DNA of 64,000 bases from an uncultured Granulicatella sp. (GCF_963528315.1 NZ_CAURVV010000001.1:13464-77463); one strand, 5' to 3'; numbered from the stretch's first letter, positions 39,638-64,000 are shown. The notes: a model not told the origin generated them from the letters alone. Made by a program: numbers and translations.

Positions 39638-39645
39638 AAGGAGTA

Positions 39646-52217: not shown

Positions 52218-52239
52218 TATTTTATATATCAACATTTCA

Positions 52240-52271
52240 ACACTCTGTGGTTATACCACAGGGTGTTTTTT
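52240..52271 (+). terminator. Intrinsic terminator of rplM-rpsI
   Basis: acactctgtgg/ccacagggtgt hairpin followed by TTTTTTG. Confidence 0.8.
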
Positions 52272-52286
52272 GCGTATATGAGTATA

Positions 52287-52430
52287 GAAATTGACTTTTC
52301 CGGTTGTAGCAATGGACGCCAGAAGACCTGCGGTCTCTTGGCCAAAAATTGAGCCTGTAGTCTCAATTTTTCCAGTACTAGAATCCGATGGGACGGCTTC
52401 TAGTACTTGTGCACGTGGAAAAGTCATTTC
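52287..52430 (+). repeat. Structured intergenic repeat, long form, copy 15
   Basis: Arms gaaattgacttttccggttgtagca / tgcacgtggaaaagtcatttc. Core GGACGCCAGAAG-gacc tgc ggtc-TCTCTTGGCC. Hairpin 2 is one bp shorter in both arms (aattgag/ctcaatt). Confidence 0.9.
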
Positions 52431-52532
52431 TATTTTGGAGTGAGGTTATGGGAGGGCGTTTAGGAGAGTGAACTTTCTAAAGATTTCTTAATCTCAAAAT
52501 ACTTTCTTATAGTTTCATTATTCTAATTTTAA

Positions 52533-52561
52533 TTGAACAGGTTAGTGTTTTTCCGTATAAT
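52533..52561 (+). promoter_or_regulatory. Sigma-A promoter at the head of the immunity island
   Basis: TTGAAC, a 17-nt spacer, then TATAAT, 55 nt upstream of the first island ORF. Confidence 0.55.
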
Positions 52562-52616
52562 TAGGTTTAAATTACAAATATTTGTTGAATAAATCAGATA
52601 TTAAAGAGGTGAAAAA

Positions 52617-53057
52617 ATGACTTTTGAAGATAAATTTATGGAAGTTCAAATTGGCATGATTTCGTTAGCAATGGAATATGTCCAAAATCAAGCAGAAAAA
52701 GTATATATTTATGCAATAGCAGACAGTTTGTATAGTTTTAAGCCATTTTATAAAATTAATGGTATTGTAATTGGAATGGAAGAAGTTAATGAAGTTGTGA
52801 CAAAAAAAGTAGATGATTCTGATAATATGGCATTTTCTTTATTGAAATATGGAACTGAAGATATGCAGAAATTGCAGGAGGTTTGCCAAGAATATAATCG
52901 TGAACATCCGACTGAGATGTGGTTGATTTATGATGCACAGAAAAATACCCTTAATAGTCGCTATAGCTATGAAGGGCGTTATGAGAAGGATGAAGAATTG
53001 CTTCCACGTTTAGAGTTTGAAAAATGGTTTGAGGAAGTAAAAAGTAAGGAACTGTAG
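52617..53057 (+). CDS. Putative polymorphic-toxin immunity protein, family A copy 1 (possibly remote YezG/DUF600-like)
   Basis: 146 aa, acidic, with no signal peptide. It is near-identical to 56828..57271, and a third 3' fragment lies at 63706. Confidence 0.45.
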   Translation: MTFEDKFMEVQIGMISLAMEYVQNQAEKVYIYAIADSLYSFKPFYKINGIVIGMEEVNEVVTKKVDDSDNMAFSLLKYGTEDMQKLQEVCQEYNREHPTEMWLIYDAQKNTLNSRYSYEGRYEKDEELLPRLEFEKWFEEVKSKEL

Positions 53058-53068
53058 GAGAATAAGAT

Positions 53069-53542
53069 ATGTACCAACAAAATCAATCAATTATCTATCC
53101 CTTGCTAACTGATGCGCTCTTATTGGAAAGAGAAGTAGTGTGGAGAGTTAAACTGCCTGATGATTATAAGGAATTTATAAAGAAAGAGAATGGAGTCATT
53201 CCCTCAAAAAGGTATTTTCATTTTGAGCATAATGAGAAAGTAATTGATCGTTTTTTAGCTATACTAGCTATTTCAGGAGAGAAGACAGAAGAGGATTACG
53301 ATATAGGAGTTGTGAGTACGCAATTGGAAGGTCGTATTGTATTTGATGAAGATAATGTTGGAATGCAACTAATCCCTATAGCTGCATTATTTGGTGGTGA
53401 TTTTGTTTGTCTAAATTATGTCGAGGATTCCGAAAATCCAAGCATTTGTATCTGGTATCATGAAGAGTCCTATGAGCTGGAGCCTGCTATAGAGTTTTTA
53501 GCTAACAACTTCACAGAGTTTTTAGCAATGCTACAGGATTAG
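53069..53542 (+). CDS. SMI1/KNR4 (SUKH-1) family immunity protein
   Basis: LPDDYKEFIKKENG...IPIAALFGGDFVCLNY...FTEFLAML pattern is typical of the SUKH superfamily. Confidence 0.75.
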   Translation: MYQQNQSIIYPLLTDALLLEREVVWRVKLPDDYKEFIKKENGVIPSKRYFHFEHNEKVIDRFLAILAISGEKTEEDYDIGVVSTQLEGRIVFDEDNVGMQLIPIAALFGGDFVCLNYVEDSENPSICIWYHEESYELEPAIEFLANNFTEFLAMLQD

Positions 53543-53630
53543 CTATATTATGGATATTAATTTAACGCGAAGCAAATAAACGATTAAATGACTGCTTAAC
53601 GTAGGAATTCTCAGATGAAAGGATGATACA

Positions 53631-53966
53631 ATGGTAGAATATGAAAAACATAATTTAATAGTAAATAGTAAAGTTATAAAATGTTTTGAATTTGAAATCC
53701 GAAATGTAATTGAACATGGTGATGAATTTATTGTTTTATTGGAGATTCCTTTTGATAATGAGAGTGAAAAGAATAACATTTTAAGGATTGATGCGAGTGG
53801 AAATGTAGTTTGGGAGATAAATAATAGTGGATACAGTAATAATAGTTATCCCTTTGAACAGATGACTTTGGGAGATGGCTGGCTTTATGCAACTGATTTT
53901 TATGCCAGAAGGTTAAAAGTTGATATAAAAACGGGAAAAATAGTTGATATGGCTATATCAAAATAA
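53631..53966 (+). CDS. Hypothetical small protein (candidate immunity protein)
   Basis: 111 aa with RBS AAAGGATG. I recognise no family. Context only. Confidence 0.35.
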   Translation: MVEYEKHNLIVNSKVIKCFEFEIRNVIEHGDEFIVLLEIPFDNESEKNNILRIDASGNVVWEINNSGYSNNSYPFEQMTLGDGWLYATDFYARRLKVDIKTGKIVDMAISK

Positions 53967-54007
53967 TAGAAGTTTGAGAATTTCAGAAATATGTGGAGGG
54001 CTTATAA

Positions 54008-54409
54008 ATGAGCGAAGCTTACTTGCCTACAAGAGATAGTTTGGGTTATCAGAATGTCAAACAAGCTTTAGAGAAAATTTTTTCGATTGATCTTGATACG
54101 ATTAAGATTAATGGAGGAGATGATGAAAATTTTAATTTTCCGTTCATGTATAATGGTTATCATATGACAATAGGTATTTCATCAACCGGTAAAAATACGC
54201 AATTGGAAGCAGGAAAGGGTGGCTTATTTAACATTTGGTTCGCTCAAACGGATGAACAGAGATTTTCAATCAATTTTTTATCCAAGGTTATTGATGATAA
54301 GAGTATAAGAAGAGTGTATGGCTGTGATGAAGAATCAGTCGAACGGACTTTGAATATATTGAAAGACTTTCTAAATTCAGATAAAGCGGAAGTTCTATTG
54401 AAGAATTGA
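54008..54409 (+). CDS. Hypothetical small protein (candidate immunity protein)
   Basis: 133 aa with RBS GGAGGG. I recognise no family. Context only. Confidence 0.35.
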   Translation: MSEAYLPTRDSLGYQNVKQALEKIFSIDLDTIKINGGDDENFNFPFMYNGYHMTIGISSTGKNTQLEAGKGGLFNIWFAQTDEQRFSINFLSKVIDDKSIRRVYGCDEESVERTLNILKDFLNSDKAEVLLKN

Positions 54410-54621
54410 ATCTATGTCTAGATTTCATCACGGGATTTGTGAAATCGAAATTAGATCAAATAGATATTAATTTATCTCCAGAAGATTTACAGTTGAGGTC
54501 AAAAAACTTCAAAGAATTTTGAATGGTCTACAAAGTAAAGGACTACCTTTGTGTCAAAACCAAGATGCAACTCAGAAACTATAGAAACGTTTTGACAATA
54601 AATTAGATTGAGGTATTAAAA

Positions 54622-54763
54622 ATGGATGTAACAAAATTAAATAAACTATCCTATATTTATATTCTGAAAGCAATGCTGAAGCTGTGATCTAGTTAAGTCT
54701 ATTAATAGTGAAGATAAACTCTTTATCTTGCTTGATAATTATAACTGGGATAAAGGTTTTGAA
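54622..54763 (+). pseudogene. Frameshifted 5' fragment of a DUF4274-like gene
   Basis: Aligns at nucleotide level with the first ~140 nt of the intact 63234 ORF and its upstream ~60 nt. It has a 1-nt deletion and an in-frame stop, and is cut off at 54763. Confidence 0.65.
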
Positions 54764-54922
54764 GGAAGAATCAAAGATTTCTTTAAAGCTGGTGATACTG
54801 GATTAGGTAATACTTGGTATCATCATTAAGATGGTAAGACTCTTCAAGAGGTGGATAGTGCTATTTATAGACGTTTTACTCATAGAGGTGGCATCTCAAT
54901 TCTGAATTTAGGAGGTAAATAA
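54764..54922 (+). pseudogene. Remnant of an HNH/EndoVII-fold (WHH/AHH-type) nuclease toxin C-terminal domain
   Basis: Translates GRIKDFFKAGDTGLGNTWYHH*DGKTLQEVDSAIYRRFTHRGGISILNLGGK*. There is an in-frame TAA at 54827 and no start codon or N-terminal region. The stop lies 1 nt before the SUKH ATG. Confidence 0.6.
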
Positions 54923-54923
54923 A

Positions 54924-55379
54924 ATGGTATTAACTATAGACTCATTTGGTCATGCGGAAGAAGAAGATATCAAACTTTTAGAAAAACGATTTGATATCAA
55001 ACTTCCAGTGGACTACAAAGAATTTTTAGTTACACAAAATGGAGGAAGGAATTTATCCTATAAATTTGAAAATTCAATAAAGATCAATCAAATAGATGAA
55101 GTTATCAATATTGATACTATGTTTGGTATAAATACGGGAATTAAAAATGCTGATATAGAGCAGTGGACAGAAGAATATCGGAATGATATTTTTGAACATT
55201 CCATTATTATTGGTGACACTATTCAGCACGGATTTCTAATATTTTGGCAAAGTGATGATGAGAATGAAGGCCTATATTATTACGACGATACGTATCAATT
55301 AGAAGCCTCAAATGATGAAAATAACGCCTATTTTTTAGCTAAGACATTTTCAGAATTTATGGATTTAATACAGAACTAA
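54924..55379 (+). CDS. SMI1/KNR4 (SUKH-1) family immunity protein
   Basis: IKLLEKRFDIKLPVDYKEFLVTQNGG...FSEFMDLI. Confidence 0.75.
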   Translation: MVLTIDSFGHAEEEDIKLLEKRFDIKLPVDYKEFLVTQNGGRNLSYKFENSIKINQIDEVINIDTMFGINTGIKNADIEQWTEEYRNDIFEHSIIIGDTIQHGFLIFWQSDDENEGLYYYDDTYQLEASNDENNAYFLAKTFSEFMDLIQN

Positions 55380-55456
55380 GAGCATAATTGAGGGAATTAT
55401 CTGAATAGATGTTCCCTTAAATTTTCATTAGAATTGAAGAGGAGTTACCAACGAAA

Positions 55457-55942
55457 ATGACAGTTGAGAAGCAAATTCAAGATAAAATATATGAATTAAT
55501 AAATAATGTTAATAAGACCATTCCTGTTGATTGGGATGAAATTTATATAAATTCTGAAATGTCGGAAACTGGTGGGAATGTATATTTTTTCTTCAAATTA
55601 CCAGATAATGATAAATTATTTTATAGCTTATTAATTCCTGATGATTTTAAAGTTGAGGAGAAGACTTTTGAAAAAATGGATTATCAGAATTATGTTTTAG
55701 CAAGAGAACTATGGAATATTTTTGAAAATAATCATATTGAGGTATGGAAAAATGCAAGTTTTATTTATAAAAATAATAAACTTAGCAGACATTTTGATTA
55801 TGTTGATTGGAATGCTTCACAATTTGGACCAACTGATCGTATAAACTATTTCAGGTATAAATACATGAAAGTTGCACCAAAAGATAATATTCAAGAACAA
55901 CTTTTTCAAGAAATGGAAAAGTATCAAAGCAAATTTTTATAA
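55457..55942 (+). CDS. YezG/DUF600 family immunity protein
   Basis: IYELINNVNKTIPVDWDEIYINSEMSETGGNVYFFFK... matches the YezG-type N-terminal pattern. Confidence 0.65.
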   Translation: MTVEKQIQDKIYELINNVNKTIPVDWDEIYINSEMSETGGNVYFFFKLPDNDKLFYSLLIPDDFKVEEKTFEKMDYQNYVLARELWNIFENNHIEVWKNASFIYKNNKLSRHFDYVDWNASQFGPTDRINYFRYKYMKVAPKDNIQEQLFQEMEKYQSKFL

Positions 55943-56035
55943 AATTTTCAAGGTTAGAAAAAATTAGTCATATTTATTAAGTTTTTTTCAAAAGTAATCG
56001 ATTTAAAATTAATATACAGATACTGGTATAATTGA

Positions 56036-56236
56036 GAAATAAGTTCCTGGAAAGTATTTGAATCAGTAAAGAAAAGAGATTACAAAACTTCGGAAATAAG
56101 GGAAGCTCACTTGGATGAATTAAATGATATGGAAACAATGCAATTAGTTCCATCTGTTGTTAATAGTAAATTTGAACATCTAGGTGGGATAGCTGAAGTT
56201 AAAAAAACTATTTGTTTTATAGAAAGAAAGGTTTAA
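56036..56236 (+). pseudogene. Remnant of a second HNH/EndoVII-fold toxin C-terminal domain
   Basis: The open frame has no start: EISSWKVFESVKKRDYKTSEIREAHLDELNDMETMQLVPSVVNSKFEHLGGIAEVKK... It shares the xH(H/L)...T(L/M)Q(E/L)V...H(R/L)GG pattern with the 54764 remnant. The stop lies 7 nt before the next ATG. Confidence 0.55.
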
Positions 56237-56243
56237 AAAAACA

Positions 56244-56723
56244 ATGCAAATAAATCATAAAACTTTTGGTAAAATAAAATTCAATTACGGTTGGACAAAA
56301 GATATTTCTCTAGATATTTTCAATAAGCACCATATTTTGGAAATCAATATTGATGCGGATGAAGATGCTGAATTTGAAACTAATCAGGAAAAAGCTTATA
56401 GATTTTTCAATAATCACTTAGATGAAATAGTAAAAGAGGCAGATTCGGCAATTATATCATATTACAATCGTGAAATATCAGATATTGTTTCAAGTTACAC
56501 GAATAATAACGAAAAGAAATATTTTTTAGATATCATTGGAGATAAAGATAAAATTTATTCTTTGTTGCAACCTAAACAAATCATGTTTCCTTTAACATTT
56601 GATGAAAATATTGAAGAGTTTGGTTTTTTATGTGAGTGTGATTGGGATAAAGAAAATGGCATAGGAATAAAATTTGTTAATGGCGAATTGTCTGAAATTG
56701 GTTATCAGGATATACTCCTATAA
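56244..56723 (+). CDS. Putative cognate immunity protein (unassigned family)
   Basis: 159 aa and acidic, immediately downstream of the toxin remnant. Confidence 0.45.
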   Translation: MQINHKTFGKIKFNYGWTKDISLDIFNKHHILEINIDADEDAEFETNQEKAYRFFNNHLDEIVKEADSAIISYYNREISDIVSSYTNNNEKKYFLDIIGDKDKIYSLLQPKQIMFPLTFDENIEEFGFLCECDWDKENGIGIKFVNGELSEIGYQDILL

Positions 56724-56827
56724 GTATATATTTTCTTATAATTATTTGTAGTTTTGAAGTTAATTATAAGATTGATGGTGAACCAAAATCTGAAATAATA
56801 AAAAGTATAAATAGAAGGAGACGAAAG

Positions 56828-57271
56828 ATGAATAAATTCGAAGATAAATTTATGGAAGTTCAAGTTGGCATGATTTCGTTAGCAATGGAGTATGTCCAAA
56901 ATCAAGCAGAAAAAGTATATATCTATGCGATAGCGGACAGTTTGTATAGTTTTAAGCCATTTTATAAAATTAATGGTATTGTAATTGGAATGGAAGAAGT
57001 TAATGAAGTTGTGACAAAAAAAGTAGATGATTCTGATAATATGGCATTTTCTTTATTGAAATATGGAACTGAAGATATGCAGAAATTGCAGGAGGTTTGC
57101 CAAGAATATAATCGTGAACATCCGACTGAGATGTGGTTGATTTATGATGCACAGAAAAATACCCTTAATAGTCGCTATAGCTATGAAGGGCGTTATGAGA
57201 AGGATGAAGAATTGCTTCCACGTTTAGAGTTTGAAAAATGGTTTGAGGAAGTAAAAAGTGAGGAACTGTAG
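56828..57271 (+). CDS. Putative immunity protein, family A copy 2
   Basis: Differs from 52617..53057 by only a few substitutions outside the first 4 codons. Confidence 0.45.
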   Translation: MNKFEDKFMEVQVGMISLAMEYVQNQAEKVYIYAIADSLYSFKPFYKINGIVIGMEEVNEVVTKKVDDSDNMAFSLLKYGTEDMQKLQEVCQEYNREHPTEMWLIYDAQKNTLNSRYSYEGRYEKDEELLPRLEFEKWFEEVKSEEL

Positions 57272-57282
57272 GAGAATAAGAT

Positions 57283-57756
57283 ATGTATAAACAAGATCAA
57301 TCAATTATTTATCCTTTGCCAACTGATGCGCTATTATAGGAAAGAGAAGTGGCGTGGAGAGTTAAACTGCCTGATGATTATAAGGAATTTATAAAGAGAA
57401 AAAATGGTTTTTGCCCTTCTAAAAATTTATTTTCTTTAACAAATAGGTCCTTTTTGATTGAGCGATTCTTGAGTATATTAGAAAACACAAAAGACAAACC
57501 ACTTGGCATGTATGACATTGATGTTGTAATGTCCGAACTGGATGAAAGATTGTTTGTCCATGAAGATATTTTGGGATTTGAGTTGATTCCCATAGTAGCA
57601 TTGTATGGTGGAGATTTTCTTTGTCTAAACTATTTGGAGGATACTGAAAATCCGAGTATTTGTATTTGGTATCACGAAGAGTCCTACGAGTTAGAGCCAG
57701 CTATAGAGTTAGTAGCTATTAACTTTACAGAGTTTTTAGTTATGCTACAGGATTAG
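57283..57756 (+). pseudogene. SUKH family gene disrupted by a nonsense codon (mosaic paralog of 53069..53542)
   Basis: Codon 19 is TAG (57337-57339) where the paralog has TTG. The ends are near-identical to the paralog and the central ~50 codons are divergent. A GTG at 57349 could allow re-initiation. Confidence 0.7.
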
Positions 57757-57837
57757 CTATGTGTGGTGTAGTAGAATTCGTGATTGATAGAGTTCCTAAG
57801 ATAAATTGAGCATTAAAGAATCGAGGAGTAAATAATA

Positions 57838-58182
57838 ATGAAAGAAATACCATCAAAAAAAGATGATATGTTAGAAATTTATGAAGACAATGGTAAGTAT
57901 ATTTTAAAGTATCCGACTTTCAATATCACCTTGCCAGAGGTTTCTAAAGAAATCCCTAAAGAAGCAGTGGATAGCTATTTAGCAGGAGAACATAATGGTG
58001 AAGAATTAATTAATTATGCTAATTTCGGATTTTGGGAATCAAAAATTAGTCAAGAAGATGCTAACATACAATTTTTAAGAGATAATCCAGAATTTCTTCT
58101 TATTGATACAGATAGAAAGAGAGCCTATTTCTCCGAAAAAGAATTTGAAGAATTGTTGAAAAAAGCTCATATGGAAAGCTGA
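57838..58182 (+). CDS. Hypothetical small protein (candidate immunity protein)
   Basis: 114 aa with RBS GAGGAG. I recognise no family. Confidence 0.35.
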   Translation: MKEIPSKKDDMLEIYEDNGKYILKYPTFNITLPEVSKEIPKEAVDSYLAGEHNGEELINYANFGFWESKISQEDANIQFLRDNPEFLLIDTDRKRAYFSEKEFEELLKKAHMES

Positions 58183-58341
58183 ACTAAATGTTGTTCTGCC
58201 TAAGAAAGTTTCAGTAAGGATAGATACTGTTTTTGAAAAAGATTCTATATCAGTCAGACTAAAAATGTTTAACGTACGTTCTCAAATTGAAGGAGAGCCA
58301 CTTAGAATTAAGTAGATAAGAAATAAATCAGGGGATTAAAA

Positions 58342-58752
58342 ATGTTTGAAAATCAATTAAGTCAATTGTTTAATGATATAGCAAATAATGTAAATCGTAT
58401 TATTCCAGTAACTTGGAATGATTTATACTTTAATGTTGAGTTAAAGGAAGGGGACGGAGAAGTTTTATTTTATTTTAATACGAAAGAAAATCCTGAAAAA
58501 TATATTTTCTCACATGATATGCCAGTAATTTATGACATTCCATTTTCTGAATATATGGACACCTTTAATCAATTAATGAGCATTTCTAGAAACATTTTAG
58601 AGGTTTTAGAAGATAATAATCAACCTGAATGGTATGCAATGGTTTTAATAGTGAAATCTCGGAAACAATTAAAGGTTGAGTTTGATTATACTGATTGGTT
58701 TGCTAGTCCGTTTACCTCGAATCAAAGGCTGTCTTTTTTTAAATATAAATAG
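58342..58752 (+). CDS. YezG/DUF600-like immunity protein, C-terminally truncated by a premature TAG
   Basis: LFNDIANNVNRIIPVTWNDLYFNVELKEGDGEVLFYFN. After the TAG at 58750 the same frame continues LGEEPENNDLLQLFKEMEEYQNKS*, which aligns with the C-terminus of the 55457 paralog. Confidence 0.55.
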   Translation: MFENQLSQLFNDIANNVNRIIPVTWNDLYFNVELKEGDGEVLFYFNTKENPEKYIFSHDMPVIYDIPFSEYMDTFNQLMSISRNILEVLEDNNQPEWYAMVLIVKSRKQLKVEFDYTDWFASPFTSNQRLSFFKYK

Positions 58753-58828
58753 TTAGGAGAAGAACCTGAAAATAATGATTTACTTCAACTTTTTAAAGAA
58801 ATGGAAGAATATCAAAACAAAAGTTAAA

Positions 58829-58895
58829 CATCTTTGATGAACGCTTGAAAGACCTAGAGTATTTCCCATATGACCTTCTAGTCCAAGAAAACTAG
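58829..58895 (+). pseudogene. Orphan 3' fragment of a PoNi-like gene
   Basis: It encodes ...FDERLKDLEYFPYDLLVQEN*. The last ~67 nt are nearly identical to the 3' end of the 61836..62501 ORF. Confidence 0.65.
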
Positions 58896-58990
58896 GGGGG
58901 GATGGGGTTCTAACCAGTTTTAATTGAAAAGGGGAATATCTTCACCTATAGTAACTTTAAAATCGACCATAGCATAGGAGGCATCAGTAG

Positions 58991-59413
58991 ATGTTTGGAA
59001 AAATAAAATCAAATCCCTCTCATCAGTTCCATCCACTTACCAAGGATGAAATTAAAAACAGCGAATCAAAGTTAGGAATAATATTTCCGAAATTACTTAG
59101 AAAATTTTATTTAGAGATTGGCCATGGTTTTATTGGAAGTGAAGTAGGTAACATCAATCGAATTATGGATCCAGAGTCTGTTTTGGACTTTAGATTGAGA
59201 CAAAATGATTTTGAATTTTATCCGGATATTGAAATATATGATGAATTTGAAGAAGATAAAATGATTTTCTTTGAAGCAAATGAATCTGTCCTGATATCTA
59301 TTGGCTTCGGTTCAGATAATAGTGGAAAGATTTATTATTATGATGAAGAGATATCCAAAAATCTTGGGGAATTTTTAGAAAAATTGTTAGAGGACGATAC
59401 TTTTTATTATTAA
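58991..59413 (+). CDS. SUKH superfamily immunity protein
   Basis: LTKDEIKNSESKLGIIFPKLLRKFYLEIGHGFIG...LGEFLEKL. Confidence 0.6.
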   Translation: MFGKIKSNPSHQFHPLTKDEIKNSESKLGIIFPKLLRKFYLEIGHGFIGSEVGNINRIMDPESVLDFRLRQNDFEFYPDIEIYDEFEEDKMIFFEANESVLISIGFGSDNSGKIYYYDEEISKNLGEFLEKLLEDDTFYY

Positions 59414-59481
59414 TTTTTCTAACTTCGAAGATTTTCTAGATAAGTAGATGTGCTATTTTCAAAAAGGAATGAAGTAAGAAT

Positions 59482-59892
59482 ATGAAGTGGTTGAATTATA
59501 AAGGTAGTTCTATAGATATAATAGAAAGTGTGGAGCATAGATTACAAATTACTCTACCAGAGGATTATAAACAATTTGTTTTAAAATATGATGGTGGTTA
59601 TCCTAATCCTAATCATTTTAAGGTAGATGGGAAGGTAGAAATTTTCAATAATTTGATTAGCCTAGATGAGAATGAATACAATAATATATATGAAATTCTT
59701 GAAGATTTACAAGATAGAATCGGCGACCAACTAATTCCATTTGCAGAAGATGGGTTTGGAAATTTATTATGTTTTGATTATTCAGCTAATAAAAACATCG
59801 TCTTTTGGGATCATGAAAAGAACTATGGTGATTTTAAAGAGTTACCCCTTGTTTGTTTCAGTTTTTCTAGTCTAATTGAGAATCTTTTTTAA
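59482..59892 (+). CDS. SMI1/KNR4 (SUKH-1) family immunity protein
   Basis: IIESVEHRLQITLPEDYKQFVLKYDGG...IPFAEDGFGNLLCFDY. Confidence 0.75.
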   Translation: MKWLNYKGSSIDIIESVEHRLQITLPEDYKQFVLKYDGGYPNPNHFKVDGKVEIFNNLISLDENEYNNIYEILEDLQDRIGDQLIPFAEDGFGNLLCFDYSANKNIVFWDHEKNYGDFKELPLVCFSFSSLIENLF

Positions 59893-59951
59893 GATGTATA
59901 GTAGTAAATGACCATTGTTGAGTATATAAGTATGAAAATTGGAAGGAAATC

Positions 59952-60437
59952 GTGAGTATGAATCACCATAACGCATTATTTAAATTAGGAATAGCTACAT
60001 GGTTATCTAAGTCAATGCAGGAAAGTCAGTTTTATAACAAGATTGAAGAGCTTCTTGAAGAATGCTGGAAATGGGTAGAGAATCATGAGGTATCTGCAGA
60101 TGTCCTCTATTCCCTTCTTGATGATGGAACTGATTTCGGAGGGGCTTTAATTTATATGCAAGTGGATGAACCAAAATATGAATCAAAGTGGAACTGTATT
60201 TTTGAAGCAGGTGCTTCTATAGCATCATTAGCTTATAAGTTAGAAGGGAAAAAATATATACCTGCATTACTAGAAGAAATTGATTCAGCCCAACAAGAAG
60301 AATTCTTTAGTGAGCAATTGGAAAACATTCTTGGAAGTAAAATCCAACACCTAGATGACTTTAAAAACTATTTATTAGATGACAACGAAAAGAACAAAGA
60401 AAAGATACTAAAGAAACTATCTGATATATTAGACTAG
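59952..60437 (+). CDS. Hypothetical helical protein (possibly Imm6-like immunity protein)
   Basis: 161 aa and acidic. The assignment is tentative. The start is GTG 59952 or ATG 59958. Confidence 0.3.
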   Translation: MSMNHHNALFKLGIATWLSKSMQESQFYNKIEELLEECWKWVENHEVSADVLYSLLDDGTDFGGALIYMQVDEPKYESKWNCIFEAGASIASLAYKLEGKKYIPALLEEIDSAQQEEFFSEQLENILGSKIQHLDDFKNYLLDDNEKNKEKILKKLSDILD

Positions 60438-60467
60438 CTGTGAGATAAGAAAAAAAGGAGTGCATAC

Positions 60468-61133
60468 ATGTTAAGAGACAAACATAAAGATTATGCGTAT
60501 TTTGAAAAACGTTTGAATCGGTTACAAAAACGTTTAAGAGAAGCTGTCGAGATGACAGATGAAATTTCGGAGAAGTATTTGTTGTTCCATTATCAAGATT
60601 TGGTTTTGGATAATGAAGAACTAGTGAAACTTTCCTATTCTATAGGGGCTTCGAAAGAGGAGATTTTTCCCTATTATCAAGGTATTCTGTCTCATCTCAA
60701 AGTTATTGCTTCGCAGGGAGTCCCCTTTTATCGTGCAGTTGATGTCTTTGCCTTAGGAGTTCTTTATAGTGAGCGTAAGGAAGAGTTTCTGGATGATTTA
60801 AAGTCTATTTATGAGCAGATGGACCATACAGATGGTTTGATTGAATACTTTATGGTCTATCTATTCCATGATAAGATAGTTCCTTTCCACTCGATTTTAG
60901 AGTATCAAAATATGATTGAGGACAACTATGAGAGTGTAGCCAAGGCACAGGGGTTCTGGTATTATAGCCACTCGGATGCACCTTGGTATGGAATACATAA
61001 GTATGACAATAGAGGTTATGATGGCTACTGGAGTTTTGACACCGCCGCAACCTGTAAAATCAAAGGAATTTACGACGAACGCTTAAAAGACTTAGAGTAT
61101 TTTCCATATGATTTGTTGGTGCAAGGAGAGTAG
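60468..61133 (+). CDS. PoNi-like (DUF1911-type) immunity protein, tandem copy 1
   Basis: 221 aa. The conserved C-terminal two thirds (FALGVLYSERKEEFLDDLK...GYWSFDTAATCKIKGI) are shared with copies 2 and 3. The family call comes from remembered motif similarity. Confidence 0.5.
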   Translation: MLRDKHKDYAYFEKRLNRLQKRLREAVEMTDEISEKYLLFHYQDLVLDNEELVKLSYSIGASKEEIFPYYQGILSHLKVIASQGVPFYRAVDVFALGVLYSERKEEFLDDLKSIYEQMDHTDGLIEYFMVYLFHDKIVPFHSILEYQNMIEDNYESVAKAQGFWYYSHSDAPWYGIHKYDNRGYDGYWSFDTAATCKIKGIYDERLKDLEYFPYDLLVQGE

Positions 61134-61154
61134 GTTGAGAAAAGGAGTTAACAT

Positions 61155-61814
61155 ATGATAAGAGATAGAATCAAAACTGAAGAATACTTTCAGGAAGCAT
61201 TTGAATGGTATTCTGAAAGTTTGCGCAAGAAGTTGGAACGTTTTGATAAGGTAAAACCAGAAAATCTTTCGGATCATTTTCGATTTAGAGTTATTAATTA
61301 TGAAGATTTATTAAGAGTTGGTTACTCTCTAGGAAAGGATATTCAGGAGCTCTTTCCTTATTATCAAGGAATCCTCTCCAACTTAAAAGAGGTCGCCTCG
61401 GAAGGAGTTCCTTTTGACTTGGCGGTTGATATATTTGCCTTAGGAGTTCTTTATAGTGAGCGTAAGGAAGAGTTTCTAGATGATTTAAAGGCTATTTATG
61501 AGCAGATGGACCACACAGATGGCTTGATTGAATACTACATGGTTTATCTATTCCATGACAAGATAGTTCCTTTTCATTCGATTTTAGAGTATCAAAATAT
61601 GATTGAGGATGCTTATGAGAGTGTGGTTAAGGCACAGGGTTTCTGGTACTATAGCCACTCAGATGCTCCATGGTATAATAATCATACCAAAGATACTTAT
61701 GTGGGCTACTGGAGTTTTGACACTGCCGCAACTTGTAAGATTAAAGGTATTTTTGACGAACGCTTGAAAGACCTAGAGTATTTTCCATATGATTTGTTGG
61801 TGCAAGGAGAGTAG
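61155..61814 (+). CDS. PoNi-like immunity protein, tandem copy 2
   Basis: 219 aa. Same conserved C-terminal block and a divergent first ~70 aa. Confidence 0.5.
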   Translation: MIRDRIKTEEYFQEAFEWYSESLRKKLERFDKVKPENLSDHFRFRVINYEDLLRVGYSLGKDIQELFPYYQGILSNLKEVASEGVPFDLAVDIFALGVLYSERKEEFLDDLKAIYEQMDHTDGLIEYYMVYLFHDKIVPFHSILEYQNMIEDAYESVVKAQGFWYYSHSDAPWYNNHTKDTYVGYWSFDTAATCKIKGIFDERLKDLEYFPYDLLVQGE

Positions 61815-61835
61815 GTTGAGAAAAGGAGTTAACAT

Positions 61836-62501
61836 ATGATAAGAGATAGAATCAAAACAGAGGAATACTTCCGAGAAGACAGAGAATTGTATCTAGGTTC
61901 GCTAAATAGGAGATTAGCAAAATATGATAAAATTAAACCAGAAAATAAAAGTGTTTATTTTCGAAATCTAGTAATTGATAATGAAACTTTATTTAAAATA
62001 TGTTATTCTCTAGGGGATTCTGTTCAAACTCTTTTCCCCTATTATCAAGGGATTCTTTCTAATTTAAAGCTCATTGCCTCAGAGGGATTCCCATTTGACT
62101 TGGCAGTTAACATCTTTGCCCTGGGAGTGCTTTACAGTGAGCGCAAGGAAGAGTTTCTGGATGATTTGAAGGCTATTTATGAGCAGATGGATCACACAGA
62201 TGGATTGATTGAATACTACATGGTTTATCTATTCCATGACAAGATAGTTCCTTTTCACTCGATTCTAGAGTATCAAAATATGATAGAGGACACTTATGAG
62301 AGTGTAGCCAAAGCGCAGGGTTTCTGGTACTATAGCCACTCGGATGAACCTTGGTATAATTCTCATCAATATGAACACTGTGGTTATTATGGCTACTGGA
62401 GTTTTGACACCGCCGCAACCTGCAAAATCAAAGGAATCTACGACGAGCGCTTGAAAGACCTAGAATATTTCCCATATGACCTTCTAGTCCAAGAAAACTA
62501 A
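61836..62501 (+). CDS. PoNi-like immunity protein, tandem copy 3
   Basis: 221 aa. Same conserved C-terminal block, and the same intergenic spacer TAGGTTGAGAAAAGGAGTTAACATATG as between copies 1 and 2. Confidence 0.5.
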   Translation: MIRDRIKTEEYFREDRELYLGSLNRRLAKYDKIKPENKSVYFRNLVIDNETLFKICYSLGDSVQTLFPYYQGILSNLKLIASEGFPFDLAVNIFALGVLYSERKEEFLDDLKAIYEQMDHTDGLIEYYMVYLFHDKIVPFHSILEYQNMIEDTYESVAKAQGFWYYSHSDEPWYNSHQYEHCGYYGYWSFDTAATCKIKGIYDERLKDLEYFPYDLLVQEN

Positions 62502-62599
62502 GAAAACTGGGTTTCCACCAAGTTTTTATCGAACATGTAGTGTCCTTTTTCTTTCTACCTATCTAAATGTTTGATTTATTTATTAAAAAAGGAGTCTAT

Positions 62600-63139
62600 A
62601 TGTTAAAAGATTTTACAAGAGTGGCAACCTTGCCTCAAGAAGTAATAGAAAAGTATAAGAATCAAGTTCCAGAAGAGCTAGTTCAAATCTGGAAGGAAGA
62701 CGGTCTGGGGACCTTTTTAGATGGTTATTTGAAGGTCATTAATCCAGATGAGTATCTTGAACTGGTTCAGGAGACCTATTTCAGAGGGGACATTTCCATA
62801 CCTATTTTTGCGACAGCTTTTGGGGACATTATAACTTTGGAGAAGAAGAAATATTTGGGGATTATTAAATATAAAGATGGTACATTTGATATTTTTTTAG
62901 AAAATTTATCACATTTTATCAAGTTTCTACCTGACAAAAGTTTTACAGATGATTATTTTGACTTACCACTTTATCATGAGGCGGTAGAGAAATATGGTTT
63001 GCTTGACTATGCAGAGTGTTTTGGATTTGTGCCACTTTTGGTTTTAGGTGGCTTTAAAGACGTAAATCATCTGAATAAGGTAAAAATATATGAACATATT
63101 TTACTAATTACTCAATTAGCTGGGCCTATCGGAGATTAA
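62600..63139 (+). CDS. GAD-like / DUF1851 (Tdi1-type) immunity protein
   Basis: WKEDGLGTFLDGYLKVINPDEY...CFGFVPLLVLGG pattern. The ATG at 62600 follows AAAAAGGAG. Confidence 0.6.
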   Translation: MLKDFTRVATLPQEVIEKYKNQVPEELVQIWKEDGLGTFLDGYLKVINPDEYLELVQETYFRGDISIPIFATAFGDIITLEKKKYLGIIKYKDGTFDIFLENLSHFIKFLPDKSFTDDYFDLPLYHEAVEKYGLLDYAECFGFVPLLVLGGFKDVNHLNKVKIYEHILLITQLAGPIGD

Positions 63140-63233
63140 AAGTGGTCATATTTTTGATAATCTAATCAAAATCAAGGTGTAACTCAGGAACTATGGGAAT
63201 GTTTTTACAATAAATTAGTTTGAGGTATAAAAA

Positions 63234-63689
63234 ATGGATGAAATAAAATTGAATAAACTATCATATATTTTATATTCTGAAAGCAATGATAAAGCTGTGG
63301 AACTAGTTAAGTCTATTAATAGTGAAGATGAACTCTTTGTCTTGCTAGATAATTATAACTGGAATAATGGTTTTGAAGTGCCAGAGGCAATTATTACTCA
63401 TCCTAATTGTACTCTCTCTGTTGCCTTATTAGCTTTTCATCGAGCAGACGGTATACAATATTTACTTGAAGGAGAGGCTGTTTTTGCAAATCGTTTATCG
63501 AAATCCTGGGAAGATTTTATAAAGGAAGTTTATAATAAAATTTTGAAAAAGAAATATCCCAATGGAAGTATCTCTTTTCAGCCTGAAATAACAAAAATTC
63601 AAAAGTTCAAATTAAATAAGTTAACTCCTAATCTCGATCCGATTATTTTAGACGGAGTTTTAGGAAAAGATTTACATATTCGTCTTTAA
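63234..63689 (+). CDS. DUF4274-like protein (polymorphic-toxin immunity context)
   Basis: 151 aa. LNKLSYILYSESNDKAVELVKSINSEDELFVLLDNYNWNNGFEVP. A decayed copy lies at 54622. Confidence 0.5.
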   Translation: MDEIKLNKLSYILYSESNDKAVELVKSINSEDELFVLLDNYNWNNGFEVPEAIITHPNCTLSVALLAFHRADGIQYLLEGEAVFANRLSKSWEDFIKEVYNKILKKKYPNGSISFQPEITKIQKFKLNKLTPNLDPIILDGVLGKDLHIRL

Positions 63690-63705
63690 AAATAAGAATA
63701 ACAAT

Positions 63706-63821
63706 ATGATACTCTTGACAGTCGCTATAGCTATGAAGGGTGTTGTGATAAGAATGAAGAATTGCTTCCACGTCTAGTGTTTAAAAAATGGTTTGAGGAA
63801 GTTAAAGAAAATCAGCTATAA
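63706..63821 (+). pseudogene. Orphan 3' fragment of a family A immunity gene
   Basis: Aligns with the last ~115 nt of 52617..53057 (SRYSYEG...EELLPRL.F.KWFEEVK). The 5' part is missing. Confidence 0.6.
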
Positions 63822-64000
63822 TGCTTTTAATATTATGAAAATATTCTAAAATACACAACAAAGTGAAGTTTCAGGGATAGCAGTGCAACCCGAAGAGACG
63901 AAGACTCAACCTGATTTTTACTTCCAATATTTAGTACATTTTAAAATTGACAAGTCAATAAAGTCAAGTTATGGGCTACGTAGTGGCTAAAAATCCACTG

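What the first reader, a model, noticed from the sequence alone, without database searches (positions are those of the whole stretch)
52533..64000. 11.5-kb island of polymorphic-toxin immunity genes directly downstream of rplM-rpsI, with no intact toxin
- **Layout.** After the rpsI terminator and repeat copy 15, a TTGAAC-17-TATAAT promoter heads about 20 small, acidic, signal-less ORFs. All are on the + strand and closely spaced, each with its own RBS.
- **Recognisable families.** SUKH/SMI1-KNR4 (53069, 54924, 57283 pseudogene, 58991, 59482), YezG/DUF600-like (55457, 58342), PoNi-like in three copies (60468-62501), DUF1851/Tdi1-like (62600) and DUF4274 (63234, with a fragment at 54622).
- **Repeated family A.** Copies lie at 52617 and 56828, with a fragment at 63706.
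- **Unassigned ORFs.** Five ORFs fit no family I recognise.
- **What is missing.** There is no LXG/WXG100/Rhs/CdiA-type toxin N-terminal region and no secretion gene, only two decayed toxin C-terminal stubs.

This matches the orphan-immunity arrays described for Firmicute T7SS/LXG and other polymorphic toxin loci. Such an array would protect against toxins from neighbouring strains. It is the clear accessory region of the window and the best place to find unrecognised toxin-immunity pairs.
Basis: partly seen in the sequence, partly recalled or inferred. Interest (0 to 1): 0.8.

Follow-up and report, generated by a model that had tools for sequence, protein, structure and literature searches.

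The report
Toxin-less immunity-gene island in oral Streptococcus
Just downstream of the ribosomal gene rpsI, an oral (mitis-group) Streptococcus carries about 19 small antidote ("immunity") genes whose matching toxin genes have been deleted; this is a known kind of defence locus (a polyimmunity island) that probably protects the cell from DNA-cutting toxins injected by neighbouring streptococci.

Summary
Window 52617-63689 holds 19 co-oriented small ORFs (pI 4.2-5.6, no membrane segments). They follow the rpsI terminator and a TTGAAC-17-TATAAT promoter.

**Families found:**
- Pfam: SUKH x5, YezG x2, DUF6985, Imm6, PoNi x3, GAD-like/Tdi1 and DUF4274.

**Link to toxins:** In S. mitis BCC55, 88-96% identical copies of six of these genes sit beside polymorphic nuclease toxins (Ntox15, AHH, WHH/colicin-DNase, an unannotated PT-TG toxin). 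Five follow a toxin gene directly. That cluster lies directly upstream of esxA-esaA and next to an rpsI 3' remnant. In the window the toxin genes are gone except for 3' stubs. I found at least four clear ones, not two.

**Evidence it is functional and variable:**
- dN/dS is 0.05-0.35.
- The rpsI-proximal site ranges from empty to 19 cassettes among RpsI-identical contigs.
- Cassettes are shared with S. oralis, S. gordonii, S. cristatus and Granulicatella elegans.

**Verdict:** this is an orphan "heterogeneous polyimmunity locus" (Zhang et al. 2012), a new member of a known kind. It has modest added value: new toxin-immunity pairings and evidence of cross-genus sharing.

The parts
51825..52217 (+). 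rpsI (ribosomal protein S9). It forms the left flank, and its 3' end is a known integration hot spot.
   Evidence: ORF; PF00380. rpsI 3' remnants occur in L007 and L027. Literature: PMC4701971 and PMC5090054.
52239..52267 (+). Intrinsic terminator of rplM-rpsI.
   Evidence: 13-bp stem followed by a T-run.
52285..52440 (.). Copy of a dispersed roughly 120-150-nt repeat inside the intergenic region.
   Evidence: Other copies lie at 4812, 6913, 33175, 39644 and 44829. No Rfam family matches.
52533..52561 (+). Sigma-70-type promoter TTGAAC-17-TATAAT heading the island. The same promoter region is repeated in front of the Spd1-like nuclease gene just beyond the window.
52617..53057 (+). Family A copy 1: a divergent EsaG/DUF600-fold immunity protein.
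   Evidence: No direct Pfam hit. Relatives are named DUF600, and 4 of 39 hit PF04634. AF2 pLDDT is 93.8, and the top Foldseek matches are 8GUO_A and 8GUP_A (EsaG).
53069..53542 (+). SUKH immunity protein 1.
   Evidence: SUKH_6 at 3.7e-22.
53631..53966 (+). DUF7957 protein, a presumed immunity protein.
   Evidence: Precomputed PF25857 hit. It co-occurs with SUKH and unk133 in islands L016, L030 and L031.
54008..54409 (+). unk133: a family seen so far only in oral streptococci, with no Pfam match. Presumed immunity protein with an unknown partner.
   Evidence: The AF2 model has low confidence and gives no fold match.
54436..54608 (+). Stub of an AHH-nuclease toxin (residues 548-605 of 605, frameshifted).
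   Evidence: 93% DNA identity to L027 13155-13331; tblastn; AHH domain.
54622..54764 (+). DUF4274 5' pseudogene fragment.
   Evidence: repeat families D7, D8, D14.
54765..54919 (+). Stub of a WHH-type nuclease toxin (WYHH followed by an in-frame stop), directly upstream of SUKH 2.
   Evidence: aligns to residues 377-418 of the 423-aa WHH toxin, E 1e-7.
54924..55379 (+). SUKH immunity protein 2.
   Evidence: SMI1_KNR4 at 8.6e-14.
55457..55942 (+). YezG-like (DUF600) immunity protein 1.
   Evidence: PF04634 at 4.5e-30.
56052..56233 (+). Stub of a WHH/colicin-DNase toxin (residues about 406-461 of 461, frameshifted).
   Evidence: 96% DNA identity to L026 1038-1190; domains.
56244..56723 (+). DUF6985 protein, the inferred immunity partner of the WHH/colicin-DNase toxin.
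   Evidence: PF22481 at 1e-30. It is 97% identical to the gene directly after the toxin in L026 and L028.
56828..57271 (+). Family A copy 2 (97% amino-acid identity to copy 1).
57283..57756 (+). SUKH 3 pseudogene (in-frame stop at 57337-57339). It is intact in other strains.
   Evidence: The intact 157-aa version occurs in L001.
57763..57837 (+). Last roughly 74 bp of an unannotated toxin gene.
   Evidence: 94% DNA identity to L027 14768-14841.
57838..58182 (+). unk114: a new immunity candidate. Its homologue follows a toxin fragment that has no Pfam domain.
   Evidence: 93% identical to L027 14844-15176 and L026 3203-3535. The toxin partner has no hit.
58342..58827 (+). YezG-like 2, with a premature in-frame stop at 58750-58752.
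   Evidence: PF04634 at 7.7e-30; read-through shown.
58830..58894 (+). PoNi 3' fragment.
   Evidence: repeat family D6.
58991..59413 (+). SUKH immunity protein 4.
59482..59892 (+). SUKH immunity protein 5. Its homologue follows a PT-TG + colicin-DNase/WHH toxin in S. mitis BCC55.
   Evidence: It is 88% identical to L027 16526-16933.
59952..60437 (+). Imm6 immunity protein.
   Evidence: PF14434 at 9.4e-20.
60468..62501 (+). Three tandem PoNi paralogues (60468-61133, 61155-61814, 61836-62501). The N-terminal 80 aa are 38-61% identical and the rest 80-95%.
   Evidence: PoNi2 is 95% identical to the gene after the 638-aa PT-TG toxin in L027.
62555..63139 (+). Last roughly 32 bp of an Ntox15 toxin gene, followed by a GAD-like/Tdi1-type immunity gene (probable start 62600).
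   Evidence: 92% DNA identity to L027 9375-9989. The Ntox15 toxin is shown.
63165..63689 (+). Last roughly 59 bp of an AHH toxin gene, followed by the DUF4274 gene (63234-63689).
   Evidence: 95% DNA identity to L027 13273-13820. The AHH toxin is shown.
63702..63818 (+). Family A 3' fragment (last 37 codons), marking the right edge of the island.
   Evidence: repeat family D4.

Best explanation
**What it is.** This is an orphan, heterogeneous polyimmunity island in a human-associated mitis-group Streptococcus. It lies in a hypervariable slot between rpsI and a PTS-EIICBA gene.

**How it is built.** The island is assembled from cassettes of the form "3' end of a polymorphic toxin gene + its immunity gene". 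The same modules are found intact in type VIIb secretion toxin clusters of related strains. In this strain the toxin bodies have been deleted and the immunity genes kept.

**How it is expressed.** The genes are probably transcribed together from one constitutive sigma-70 promoter. That promoter is a diverged copy of the one in front of the neighbouring Spd1-like nuclease gene.

**What it does.** The small acidic cytoplasmic proteins are inferred to bind and block the catalytic domains of toxins injected by competing oral streptococci. These are mostly DNases of the Ntox15, AHH, WHH/colicin-DNase and EsaD/YeeF types, plus a probable PoNe-type toxin. The cell would thus be resistant without making the toxins itself.

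**How it changes.** Cassette content turns over through homologous recombination between paralogous genes and through horizontal transfer, probably by natural transformation.

**Shown:** gene families, cassette homology to toxin-linked genes, toxin stubs, strain variability, purifying selection and cross-species sharing.

**Inferred:** co-transcription, protein-level neutralisation, the delivery route of the incoming toxins, and absence of the cognate toxins from the rest of this genome.
For: **Families and physical properties.**
- Immunity families cover 16 of 19 ORFs.
- Family A has the EsaG/DUF600 fold.
- All proteins are acidic, lack a signal peptide or membrane segment, and have an RBS.
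- There is a promoter and terminator at the left edge and no internal terminators above chance.

**Link to a real toxin cluster (L027, S. mitis BCC55).** The cluster holds WXG100 and DUF5081 genes and five toxin genes, and is followed by esxA (WXG100, 4e-22) and esaA (TIGR03929, 150.8 bits against a cut-off of 122). Four of the five toxins carry a PT-TG domain. The pairings and amino-acid identity to the window genes are:
- 638-aa PT-TG toxin (C-terminal domain unannotated), followed by PoNi: 95%.
- Ntox15 toxin, followed by Tdi1-like: 88%.
- AHH toxin, followed by DUF4274: 93%.
- Unannotated 329-aa toxin fragment (no Pfam domain), followed by unk114: 93%.
- WHH/colicin-DNase toxin, followed by SUKH5: 88%.
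- In L026 and L028, a WHH/colicin-DNase toxin is followed by DUF6985: 97%.

**Toxin remnants in the window.**
- DNA homology blocks run from 12-177 bp inside the toxin 3' ends into the immunity genes.
- The only toxin-like sequence in 64 kb is C-terminal stubs.
- L027 also carries an rpsI 3' remnant. The toxin and T7SS cluster therefore probably occupies the same chromosomal site.

**Selection.** dN/dS is 0.05-0.35 wherever dS is at least 0.2.

**Strain variability.** Among ten RpsI-identical contigs, five have no immunity gene at the site. The others have 3 to 19 in different combinations.

**Sharing across taxa.**
- The same cassettes occur in a different order at other sites in S. oralis, S. 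peroris, S. gordonii, S. cristatus and S. sp. oral taxon 431.
- Two cassettes are 88-91% DNA-identical in Granulicatella elegans.

**Concept.** The features match the polyimmunity loci described by Zhang et al. 2012 (PMC3482391).
Against: - No experiment or expression data are available.
- The rest of this strain's genome is unseen, so cognate toxins or a T7SS could exist elsewhere. "Orphan" would then be only local.
- The N-termini of the BCC55 toxins do not match Pfam LXG or any NCBIfam model. T7SS export of those toxins is therefore inferred from gene neighbourhood alone.
- Several cassettes are damaged: SUKH3, YezG2, and the DUF4274, PoNi and family-A fragments. Part of the island is therefore decaying.
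- Three ORFs (53631, 54008, 57838) are called immunity genes only by association.
- For very close strain pairs dN/dS is about 1 or undefined, because there are too few substitutions to measure it.
Confidence: 0.8

Rival explanations
1. The island is not orphan. The strain has a T7SS and the matching toxins elsewhere in its genome, and this array is the self-immunity set or a reservoir for its own arsenal.
For: - Only 64 kb plus 10 kb of the genome was seen.
- Zhang et al. 2012 suggest polyimmunity loci may also serve as reservoirs for an organism's own new toxins.
- T7SS presence is variable in this group: the BCC55 locus has one.
Against: - In BCC55 the toxins sit immediately next to these immunity genes and next to esxA-esaA, apparently at this same rpsI site.
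- In the window that site has neither toxins nor T7SS genes.
- Toxin genes were deleted in cis, leaving stubs.
- Eight related contigs extending 10 kb downstream also lack toxins and T7SS genes.
Confidence: 0.15
2. The island is a non-functional fossil: the decaying remains of a former T7SS toxin cluster that is no longer under selection.
For: - It contains pseudogenes and fragments: 57283, 58342 (premature stop), 54622, 58830 and 63702.
- It contains toxin stubs.
- Some strains have lost the island completely.
Against: - Sixteen or seventeen ORFs are intact and have an RBS.
- dN/dS is 0.05-0.35 across species.
- The promoter region is conserved in front of family A in six independent loci.
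- Identical protein sequences recur in hundreds of metagenome blocks (321 blocks; clusters of more than 1000 members).
Confidence: 0.07
3. Family A and the YezG-like genes act as intracellular inhibitors of the cell's own adjacent Spd1-like (Endonuclea_NS_2) nuclease, rather than of incoming toxins.
For: - Family A has the fold of EsaG, a nuclease inhibitor.
- The neighbouring gene encodes an Endonuclea_NS_2 DNase.
- The family-A gene and the nuclease gene carry diverged copies of the same promoter region.
Against: - The nuclease is a lipoprotein with a Sec-type signal and a lipobox, so it is exported.
- It resembles Spd1/Sda streptodornases (4e-79). It gives no sequence match to the EsaD chain of the EsaD-EsaG complex entry 8GUO at E up to 10.
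- The two do not co-occur. L011 has the nuclease without family A, and L014, L012 and L024 have family A without the nuclease.
- This reading would not explain the other 15 genes.
Confidence: 0.04

Closest known systems
Heterogeneous polyimmunity loci (Zhang, de Souza, Anantharaman, Iyer, Aravind 2012; PMC3482391)
   Same: - Many structurally unrelated immunity genes (SUKH, Imm6, DUF600 and others) lie in tandem on one strand and are closely spaced.
- There is no intact toxin.
- Content differs between strains of one species.
- The proposed role is pre-emptive protection against toxins of non-kin cells.
   Different: - No recombinase is adjacent in this strain.
- The cassettes retain toxin 3' stubs, which ties them to a specific donor locus type, the T7SSb cluster of S. 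mitis BCC55.
- The site is the rpsI-proximal hot spot.
Orphan immunity arrays of T7SSb loci, such as esaG/DUF600 arrays downstream of esaD in Staphylococcus aureus, and the Listeria and Enterococcus LXG loci (my own knowledge; EsaD-EsaG structure 8GUO)
   Same: - EsaG-fold and YezG-like genes are present in several copies.
- The immunity genes match nuclease toxins exported by T7SS.
- Paralogue recombination generates variation.
   Different: - No T7SS core genes or toxin lie at this locus.
- The array is heterogeneous (at least 9 families) rather than dominated by DUF600.
- The toxins of the related Streptococcus cluster did not match the Pfam LXG model.
Orphan CdiA-CT/cdiI and Rhs-CT/immunity modules (my own knowledge)
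   Same: The unit retained is the toxin C-terminal coding end plus the immunity gene, stacked in tandem downstream of where a full-length toxin would be.
   Different: - The toxin parts here are reduced to 12-180 bp, so they cannot be recombined back into a functional toxin.
- No full-length toxin is present upstream.
Acquired interbacterial defence (AID/rAID) gene clusters of Bacteroidales (Ross et al. 2019; my own knowledge)
   Same: - They are orphan immunity gene arrays shared horizontally among members of one human-associated community.
- They confer resistance to contact-dependent toxins.
   Different: - AID systems ride on mobile elements or carry a tyrosine recombinase with repeats bounding each cassette.
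- No recombinase gene was recognised in the island itself or in the 10 kb downstream, and no cassette-boundary repeat was found.
- The secretion system is different: T6SS there, T7SS-associated here.

Membership tests
Heterogeneous polyimmunity locus (Zhang et al. 2012) | Four or more tandem genes from several unrelated immunity-protein superfamilies. | tested here: met
   SUKH, YezG/DUF600, EsaG-like family A, Imm6, PoNi, Tdi1/GAD-like, DUF4274, DUF6985 and DUF7957.
Heterogeneous polyimmunity locus (Zhang et al. 2012) | Same orientation and short intergenic gaps, compatible with one polycistronic transcript. | tested here: met
   All ORFs lie on the + strand and most gaps are 11-104 bp. There is one strong promoter, and internal terminators do not exceed chance. 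Transcription itself was not measured.
Heterogeneous polyimmunity locus (Zhang et al. 2012) | No linked full-length toxin. | tested here: met
   tblastn with six toxins, EsxA, EsaA and accessory proteins against the window and the L008 downstream region finds only C-terminal stubs.
Heterogeneous polyimmunity locus (Zhang et al. 2012) | Gene content differs between strains of a species. | tested here: met
   Between 0 and 19 cassettes occur at the same site in RpsI-identical contigs.
Heterogeneous polyimmunity locus (Zhang et al. 2012) | Frequently adjacent to a recombinase (common but not obligatory). | tested here: not met
   No recombinase gene was recognised in the island or in the 10 kb downstream. 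Integrase remnants are seen only in the related locus L027.
T7SSb toxin-immunity locus | Core secretion genes (esxA, esaA, essC and others) in the locus. | tested here: not met
   They are absent from the window and from 10 kb downstream. They are present next to the homologous cassettes in S. mitis BCC55.
T7SSb toxin-immunity locus | Full-length LXG-type toxin with a polymorphic C-terminal domain. | tested here: not met
   Only stubs are present in the window. The BCC55 toxins have PT-TG plus Ntox15, AHH or WHH domains, but they gave no Pfam LXG match at E up to 1 and no NCBIfam match at E up to 0.01.
T7SSb toxin-immunity locus | Immunity genes cognate to T7SS-associated toxins. | tested here: met
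   Six window genes are 88-97% identical at the amino-acid level to genes directly downstream of such toxins. Cognate status is by gene adjacency only.
EsaG / DUF600 (YezG-like, PF04634), applied to family A | Significant match to the PF04634 profile. | tested here: not met
   The window protein has no hit at E 0.01. Four of 39 family representatives hit, the best at 4.4e-7. hhalign against one window YezG is not significant. NCBI names distant relatives DUF600.
EsaG / DUF600 (YezG-like, PF04634), applied to family A | EsaG/BH3703 three-dimensional fold. | tested here: met
   The AF2 model has pLDDT 93.8. Foldseek gives 8GUO_A and 8GUP_A (EsaG) and 2IA1 (BH3703) at probability 1.00 and TM 0.59-0.68, with the next hit at E 0.04.
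EsaG / DUF600 (YezG-like, PF04634), applied to family A | Tandem paralogue arrays next to polymorphic nuclease toxin genes. | tested here: inconclusive
   Arrays of 4-6 copies lie beside PT-TG and CdiA_C toxin fragments in Salipaludibacillus. A fourfold array occurs in S. peroris. No direct pairing of family A with an identified nuclease domain was found.
Bacteroidales AID/rAID-type or integron-like cassette system | Dedicated recombinase and a conserved repeat bounding each cassette. | tested here: not met
   All repeats in 52200-64000 are explained by paralogous genes or gene fragments. No recombinase gene was recognised.

The most novel reading that the evidence does not exclude
Oral streptococci and Granulicatella may draw on a common, community-wide pool of "toxin-stub + immunity" cassettes. 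These cassettes would be preferentially deposited directly behind strongly expressed ribosomal-protein operons (rpsI here; rplS in S. oralis and S. peroris). That would make this a Gram-positive, transformation-driven analogue of the Bacteroidales acquired interbacterial defence systems. The retained toxin 3' ends and the duplicated terminator-promoter segment would then serve as the homology arms for capturing new cassettes. The island also holds candidate pairs that may be unrecognised: DUF4274 with AHH, DUF6985 with WHH, and unk114 with an unannotated toxin domain.
Probability: 0.15. Interest if true: 0.65.

Novelty: new member of a known kind. Interest (0 to 1): 0.4.

Why it matters
The island gives a concrete, testable map of which immunity gene answers which toxin in the mitis-group streptococci, which dominate the human mouth.

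**Immunity-toxin assignments.**
- Five assignments rest on direct gene adjacency in one T7SS-linked cluster of S. mitis BCC55:
  - PoNi with a 638-aa PT-TG toxin whose C-terminal domain is unannotated;
  - Tdi1-like with Ntox15;
  - DUF4274 with AHH;
  - SUKH with WHH;
  - unk114 with an unannotated toxin domain.
- A sixth, DUF6985 with WHH/colicin-DNase, rests on gene adjacency in two other Streptococcus contigs (L026 and S. oralis O3-1).
- DUF4274, DUF6985 and the unk114 family thereby gain a functional hypothesis.

**Ecology.**
- Strains that do not carry the toxins still keep, under purifying selection, the antidotes to their neighbours' nucleases.
- The same cassettes cross species and even genus boundaries (Granulicatella).
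- This bears on how resistance to contact-dependent killing spreads in oral biofilms.

**Novelty.** The locus is not a new kind of system. The concept was published in 2012 and similar arrays are known next to T7SS loci in staphylococci, listeriae and enterococci.

Tried and rejected
- **Profile comparison of family A with a window YezG protein (hhalign).** Not significant. Family A was resolved instead through structure prediction and fold search.
- **Sequence search of the family-A profile against PDB.** Only chance hits.
- **NCBIfam on the unassigned ORFs.** Nothing useful.
- **unk133 (54008).**
  - The listed homologues are all at least 80% identical, the named ones come from oral streptococci, and all are annotated as hypothetical.
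  - The AF2 model is poor (pLDDT 61.7) and Foldseek gave nothing below E 0.68.
  - No toxin partner was found in the S. cristatus context.
- **Pfam and NCBIfam on the N-termini of the BCC55 toxins.** No LXG match.
- **The toxin paired with unk114.** No Pfam, NCBIfam or PDB sequence match.
- **Hypothesis that the adjacent nuclease is EsaD-like and paired with family A.** Rejected. The nuclease is a Spd1-type exported lipoprotein and its presence is uncoupled from family A.
- **Integron-like or AID-like cassette-boundary repeats.** None found.
- **Rfam on the whole window.** Only the L20 leader and one tRNA; the intergenic repeat has no family.
- **Literature searches for this specific island in S. 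mitis or S. oralis.** No description found in the held library. A search for the Pfam family of EsaD found nothing.
- **Species of the window.** It could not be named more precisely than mitis group. One "Granulicatella" MAG contig (L025) carrying rplT-rplM-rpsI plus the island is probably a mis-binned Streptococcus contig.

Full report
**1. Check of the observation**

- rplM (51353-51811) and rpsI (51825-52217) are followed by a 13-bp-stem terminator at 52239-52267.
- Next comes a copy of a dispersed repeat at about 52285-52440.
- Then comes a TTGAAC-17-TATAAT promoter at 52533-52561.
- From 52617 to 63689 there are 19 ORFs, all on the + strand.
- Each ORF has a GGAG-type ribosome-binding site, a predicted pI of 4.18-5.63 and no hydrophobic segment that would suggest export.
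- GC falls to 26-37%, against about 39% in the ribosomal genes.
- Terminator-like sites inside the island are no more frequent than in shuffled sequence.

- five SUKH/SMI1_KNR4 genes (53069, 54924, 57349, 58991, 59482);
- two YezG-like genes (55457, 58342);
- three PoNi genes (60468, 61155, 61836);
- GAD-like+Tdi1_C (62567);
- DUF4274 (63234).

The SUKH at 57283 has an in-frame stop after codon 18. A DUF4274 5' fragment lies at 54622-54764 and a family-A 3' fragment at 63702-63818.

- 56244 is DUF6985 (1e-30).
- 59952 is Imm6 (9e-20).
- 53631 carries a precomputed DUF7957 hit.
- The YezG at 58342 ends at a premature in-frame stop. A PoNi 3' fragment follows at 58830-58894.

**2. The repeated "family A"**

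The window protein has no direct Pfam or NCBIfam hit. Several lines place it with the EsaG/DUF600 immunity proteins.
- An exhaustive search finds 412 cluster representatives, mostly stand-alone proteins of about 150 aa.
- Four of 39 representatives hit YezG-like PF04634.
- NCBI names the Bacillaceae relatives "DUF600 domain-containing protein".
- An AlphaFold model built from a 43-sequence alignment is confident (pLDDT 93.8, pTM 0.89).
- Its only significant fold matches are S. aureus EsaG (8GUO_A, 8GUP_A) and BH3703/DUF600 (2IA1, 3I0T). These have probability 1.00 and TM 0.59-0.68.

Genomic context agrees.
- In Salipaludibacillus, six copies lie in tandem beside PT-TG and CdiA_C toxin fragments.
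- In S. peroris, four copies head another immunity island.

Family A is therefore a divergent EsaG-type immunity protein.

**3. Organism and surroundings**

Family A and unk133 homologues come from S. peroris, S. mitis, S. cristatus and unnamed oral streptococci. The flank encodes choline-binding proteins. The contigs that carry the island come from human-associated metagenomes. The organism is a mitis-group Streptococcus; I could not name the species.

Locus L008 is 99.5% identical to window 53234-64000 and continues past the window end. Downstream it holds:
- a second, roughly 80% identical copy of the rpsI-terminator/repeat/promoter segment;
- a lipoprotein DNase, with signal MKRLLSLTFTVLSMITLVGCSG, that is closely related to the streptodornase Spd1 (2XGR, 4e-79);
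- small membrane proteins;
- a PTS-EIICBA gene.

No secretion gene or toxin is present. The whole window contains no ORF longer than 878 aa.

**4. Where the cassettes come from**

A scan of one genome per species with the DUF6985 protein found 13 loci. The most informative is L027, from S. mitis BCC55. In order, it holds:
- a WXG100-like gene and a DUF5081 gene;
- a 638-aa PT-TG toxin, then PoNi;
- a 625-aa PT-TG+Ntox15 toxin, then a Tdi1-like gene;
- DUF6985 and SUKH;
- a 605-aa PT-TG+AHH toxin, then DUF4274;
- a 329-aa toxin fragment with no known domain, then a 119-aa gene;
- a 423-aa PT-TG+colicin-DNase/WHH toxin, then SUKH;
- esxA (WXG100, 4e-22);
- an ORF of more than 925 aa matching EsaA (TIGR03929, 150.8 bits against a cut-off of 122).

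In L026 and L028 (S. oralis O3-1), a WHH/colicin-DNase toxin directly precedes DUF6985.

The window genes are close relatives of these toxin-linked genes:

| Window gene | Amino-acid identity |
|---|---|
| PoNi2 | 95% |
| Tdi1 | 88% |
| DUF4274 | 93% |
| unk114 (57838) | 93% |
| SUKH5 | 88% |
| DUF6985 | 96-97% |

**5. Toxin remnants**

At the DNA level each homology block begins inside the 3' end of the toxin gene and runs through the immunity gene.

| Window | Matches | DNA identity | Toxin part retained |
|---|---|---|---|
| 54436-54764 | L027 13155-13486 | 93% | last 177 bp of the AHH toxin |
| 56070-56755 | L026 1038-1723 | 96% | last 153 bp of the WHH toxin |
| 57763-58170 | L027 14768-15176 | 94% | last 74 bp of the unannotated toxin |
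| 59463-59901 | L027 16506-16945 | 91% | last ~12 bp of the WHH toxin |
| 62555-63175 | L027 9375-9989 | 92% | last 32 bp of the Ntox15 toxin |
| 63165-63712 | L027 13273-13820 | 95% | last 59 bp of the AHH toxin |

A further WHH-type stub lies at about 54765-54919, directly upstream of SUKH2. Its sequence reads NTWYHH, then a stop, then DGKTLQEVDSAIYRRFTHRGGIS.

tblastn with all these toxins, EsxA, EsaA and the accessory proteins finds nothing else in the 64-kb window or in L008. The island is therefore built from "toxin 3' end + immunity" modules whose toxin bodies were removed.

L027 also contains an rpsI 3' remnant (83% to window 52164-52237) and integrase fragments. This suggests that the T7SS and toxin cluster of BCC55 sits at the same chromosomal site.

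**6. Variation and selection**

Looking up the exact RpsI protein returned ten contexts.
- In five, the interval from rpsI to PTS-EIICBA has no immunity gene. It is either empty, or holds a Mga/PRD-PTS module with or without the nuclease, or holds a protein-kinase module.
- In the other five there are islands of different size and content. One has three genes (family A-Tdi1-DUF4274). Others are larger, with up to 12 genes visible, sometimes preceded by other inserted modules.

Eight contexts of the exact DUF4274 protein also differ in the left half of the island. The window looks like a composite of three parts:
- an L016-type block (family A-SUKH-DUF7957-unk133-DUF4274 fragment);
- a SUKH2-YezG1-DUF6985 block;
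- an L012-type block (family A-SUKH-...-DUF4274).

The two family-A/SUKH heads are 86% identical in DNA. All repeats in the island are paralogous genes or gene fragments, and no attC-like boundary repeat exists. Homologous recombination between paralogues is thus the likely engine of turnover.

Orthologous cassettes in other species give dN/dS of 0.05-0.35 wherever dS is at least 0.2. The proteins are therefore maintained by selection.

**7. Spread**

The same cassettes occur in different orders at other sites:
- downstream of rplS in S. oralis and S. peroris;
- elsewhere in the genome in S. gordonii and S. cristatus.

Granulicatella elegans ATCC 700633 carries the DUF6985 cassette (frameshifted; 91% DNA identity) and the Tdi1 cassette (88%), plus a family-A copy. 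This level of identity is hard to explain other than by recent horizontal transfer between genera.

**8. Interpretation**

The best-supported reading is an orphan, heterogeneous polyimmunity island. It matches the features listed by Zhang et al. 2012:
- many unrelated immunity genes;
- one orientation;
- probable single transcript;
- content that varies between strains;
- a proposed pre-emptive defence role.

The protection is aimed mainly at nuclease toxins: the Ntox15, AHH, WHH/colicin-DNase and EsaD/YeeF types, plus a probable PoNe-type toxin. These are toxins that T7SS-positive relatives encode.

The steps stand as follows.
- Shown: families, stub homology, linkage of the homologues to toxins and to esxA-esaA, variability, selection and sharing.
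- Inferred: co-transcription, physical neutralisation, delivery by T7SS, and absence of cognate toxins elsewhere in this genome.

Three rivals are scored low for the reasons given in their entries:
- self-immunity for toxins encoded elsewhere in the genome;
- a decaying fossil;
- inhibitors of the neighbouring Spd1-like DNase.

**9. Novelty and score**

The kind of locus is known. Comparable arrays are known beside T7SS loci in other Firmicutes (my own knowledge) and, with a different mechanism, in Bacteroidales.

What is new here is specific.
- This rpsI-proximal island has not been described in the library I could search.
- Adjacency-based pairings are proposed: DUF4274 with AHH, DUF6985 with WHH/colicin-DNase, and unk114 with an unannotated toxin domain.
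- Family A is assigned to the EsaG fold.
- There is evidence for cross-genus cassette sharing.

I rate it a new member of a known kind, with interest 0.4.

Noticed in passing
window 52218-52617; L008 10823-11117; L009-L018 (about 10394 onward): The interval between rpsI and the PTS-EIICBA gene is a hypervariable slot among contigs with identical RpsI. It may be empty or hold a Mga/PRD-PTS module, a 464-aa + protein-kinase module, an ABC/TetR/LysR module, an MFS/HxlR module, a Spd1-like nuclease, or immunity islands. A roughly 360-bp terminator/repeat/promoter segment recurs at module boundaries, and always in front of family A.
   Followed up: partly
L007 about 3140-3190; L027 2047-2123 and 2359-2671 (- strand): Remnants of the last roughly 45-75 nt of rpsI lie downstream of inserted modules, with tyrosine-integrase fragments in L027. 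These are signs of past site-specific insertions at the rpsI 3' end, a known ICE/IME target in streptococci (PMC4701971, PMC5090054).
   Followed up: partly
L008 11133-12191 (about 1.1 kb beyond the window end): A lipoprotein DNase closely related to the S. pyogenes prophage streptodornase Spd1 (2XGR, 4e-79). It has a Lys/Glu-rich C-terminal tail, and its promoter region is a diverged duplicate of the island promoter.
   Followed up: partly
L035 9962-12896 (Granulicatella elegans ATCC 700633): DUF6985 (frameshifted), family A and Tdi1-like cassettes lie in a Granulicatella chromosome. The DUF6985 and Tdi1-like cassettes are 88-91% DNA-identical to the window and the family-A copy about 79%, which indicates cross-genus horizontal transfer of immunity cassettes.
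   Followed up: partly
L024 8149-20447 (S. peroris); L031, L032, L033 (S. oralis and a MAG) about 8032 onward: A second polyimmunity hot spot lies directly downstream of another ribosomal protein gene, rplS (L19). It has up to about 25 genes, including fourfold family A, Imm74, IFS and DUF6572.
   Followed up: no
L027 13852-14841; L026 2388-3203: A toxin C-terminal domain of about 170 aa (...GRPDGAFVFP...GNVQWRPGGKTYPGGVPE...) has no Pfam, NCBIfam or PDB sequence match. In both loci it is followed by the homologue of window ORF 57838, making this a candidate new toxin-immunity pair.
   Followed up: partly
window 60468-62501: The three PoNi paralogues are 80-95% identical over residues 81 to the end but only 38-61% identical over the first 80 residues. 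Either the diversification is focused on the N-terminal part, or the rest has been homogenised by gene conversion.
   Followed up: partly
window 52285-52440; also 4812-4898, 6913-7019, 33175-33253, 39644-39765, 44829-44946: A dispersed intergenic repeat of about 80-125 nt (73-77% identity between copies) has no Rfam family. The copy in the downstream duplicate of the intergenic region lacks an internal roughly 75-nt piece, which suggests a modular element.
   Followed up: no
L025 (NZ_CAUQUN010000040.1, labelled an uncultured Granulicatella MAG): This 10-kb contig carries infC-rpmI-rplT-rplM-rpsI plus the island. Its ribosomal-protein ORFs begin with the same residues as the window's and its DUF6985 protein is 99% identical to the window's. 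It is probably a Streptococcus contig mis-binned into a Granulicatella MAG.
   Followed up: no
L009 13361-16274: An alternative occupant of the same slot: a 464-aa protein with no Pfam hit followed by a 501-aa Ser/Thr protein kinase. Its function is unknown and it could be a defence module.
   Followed up: no
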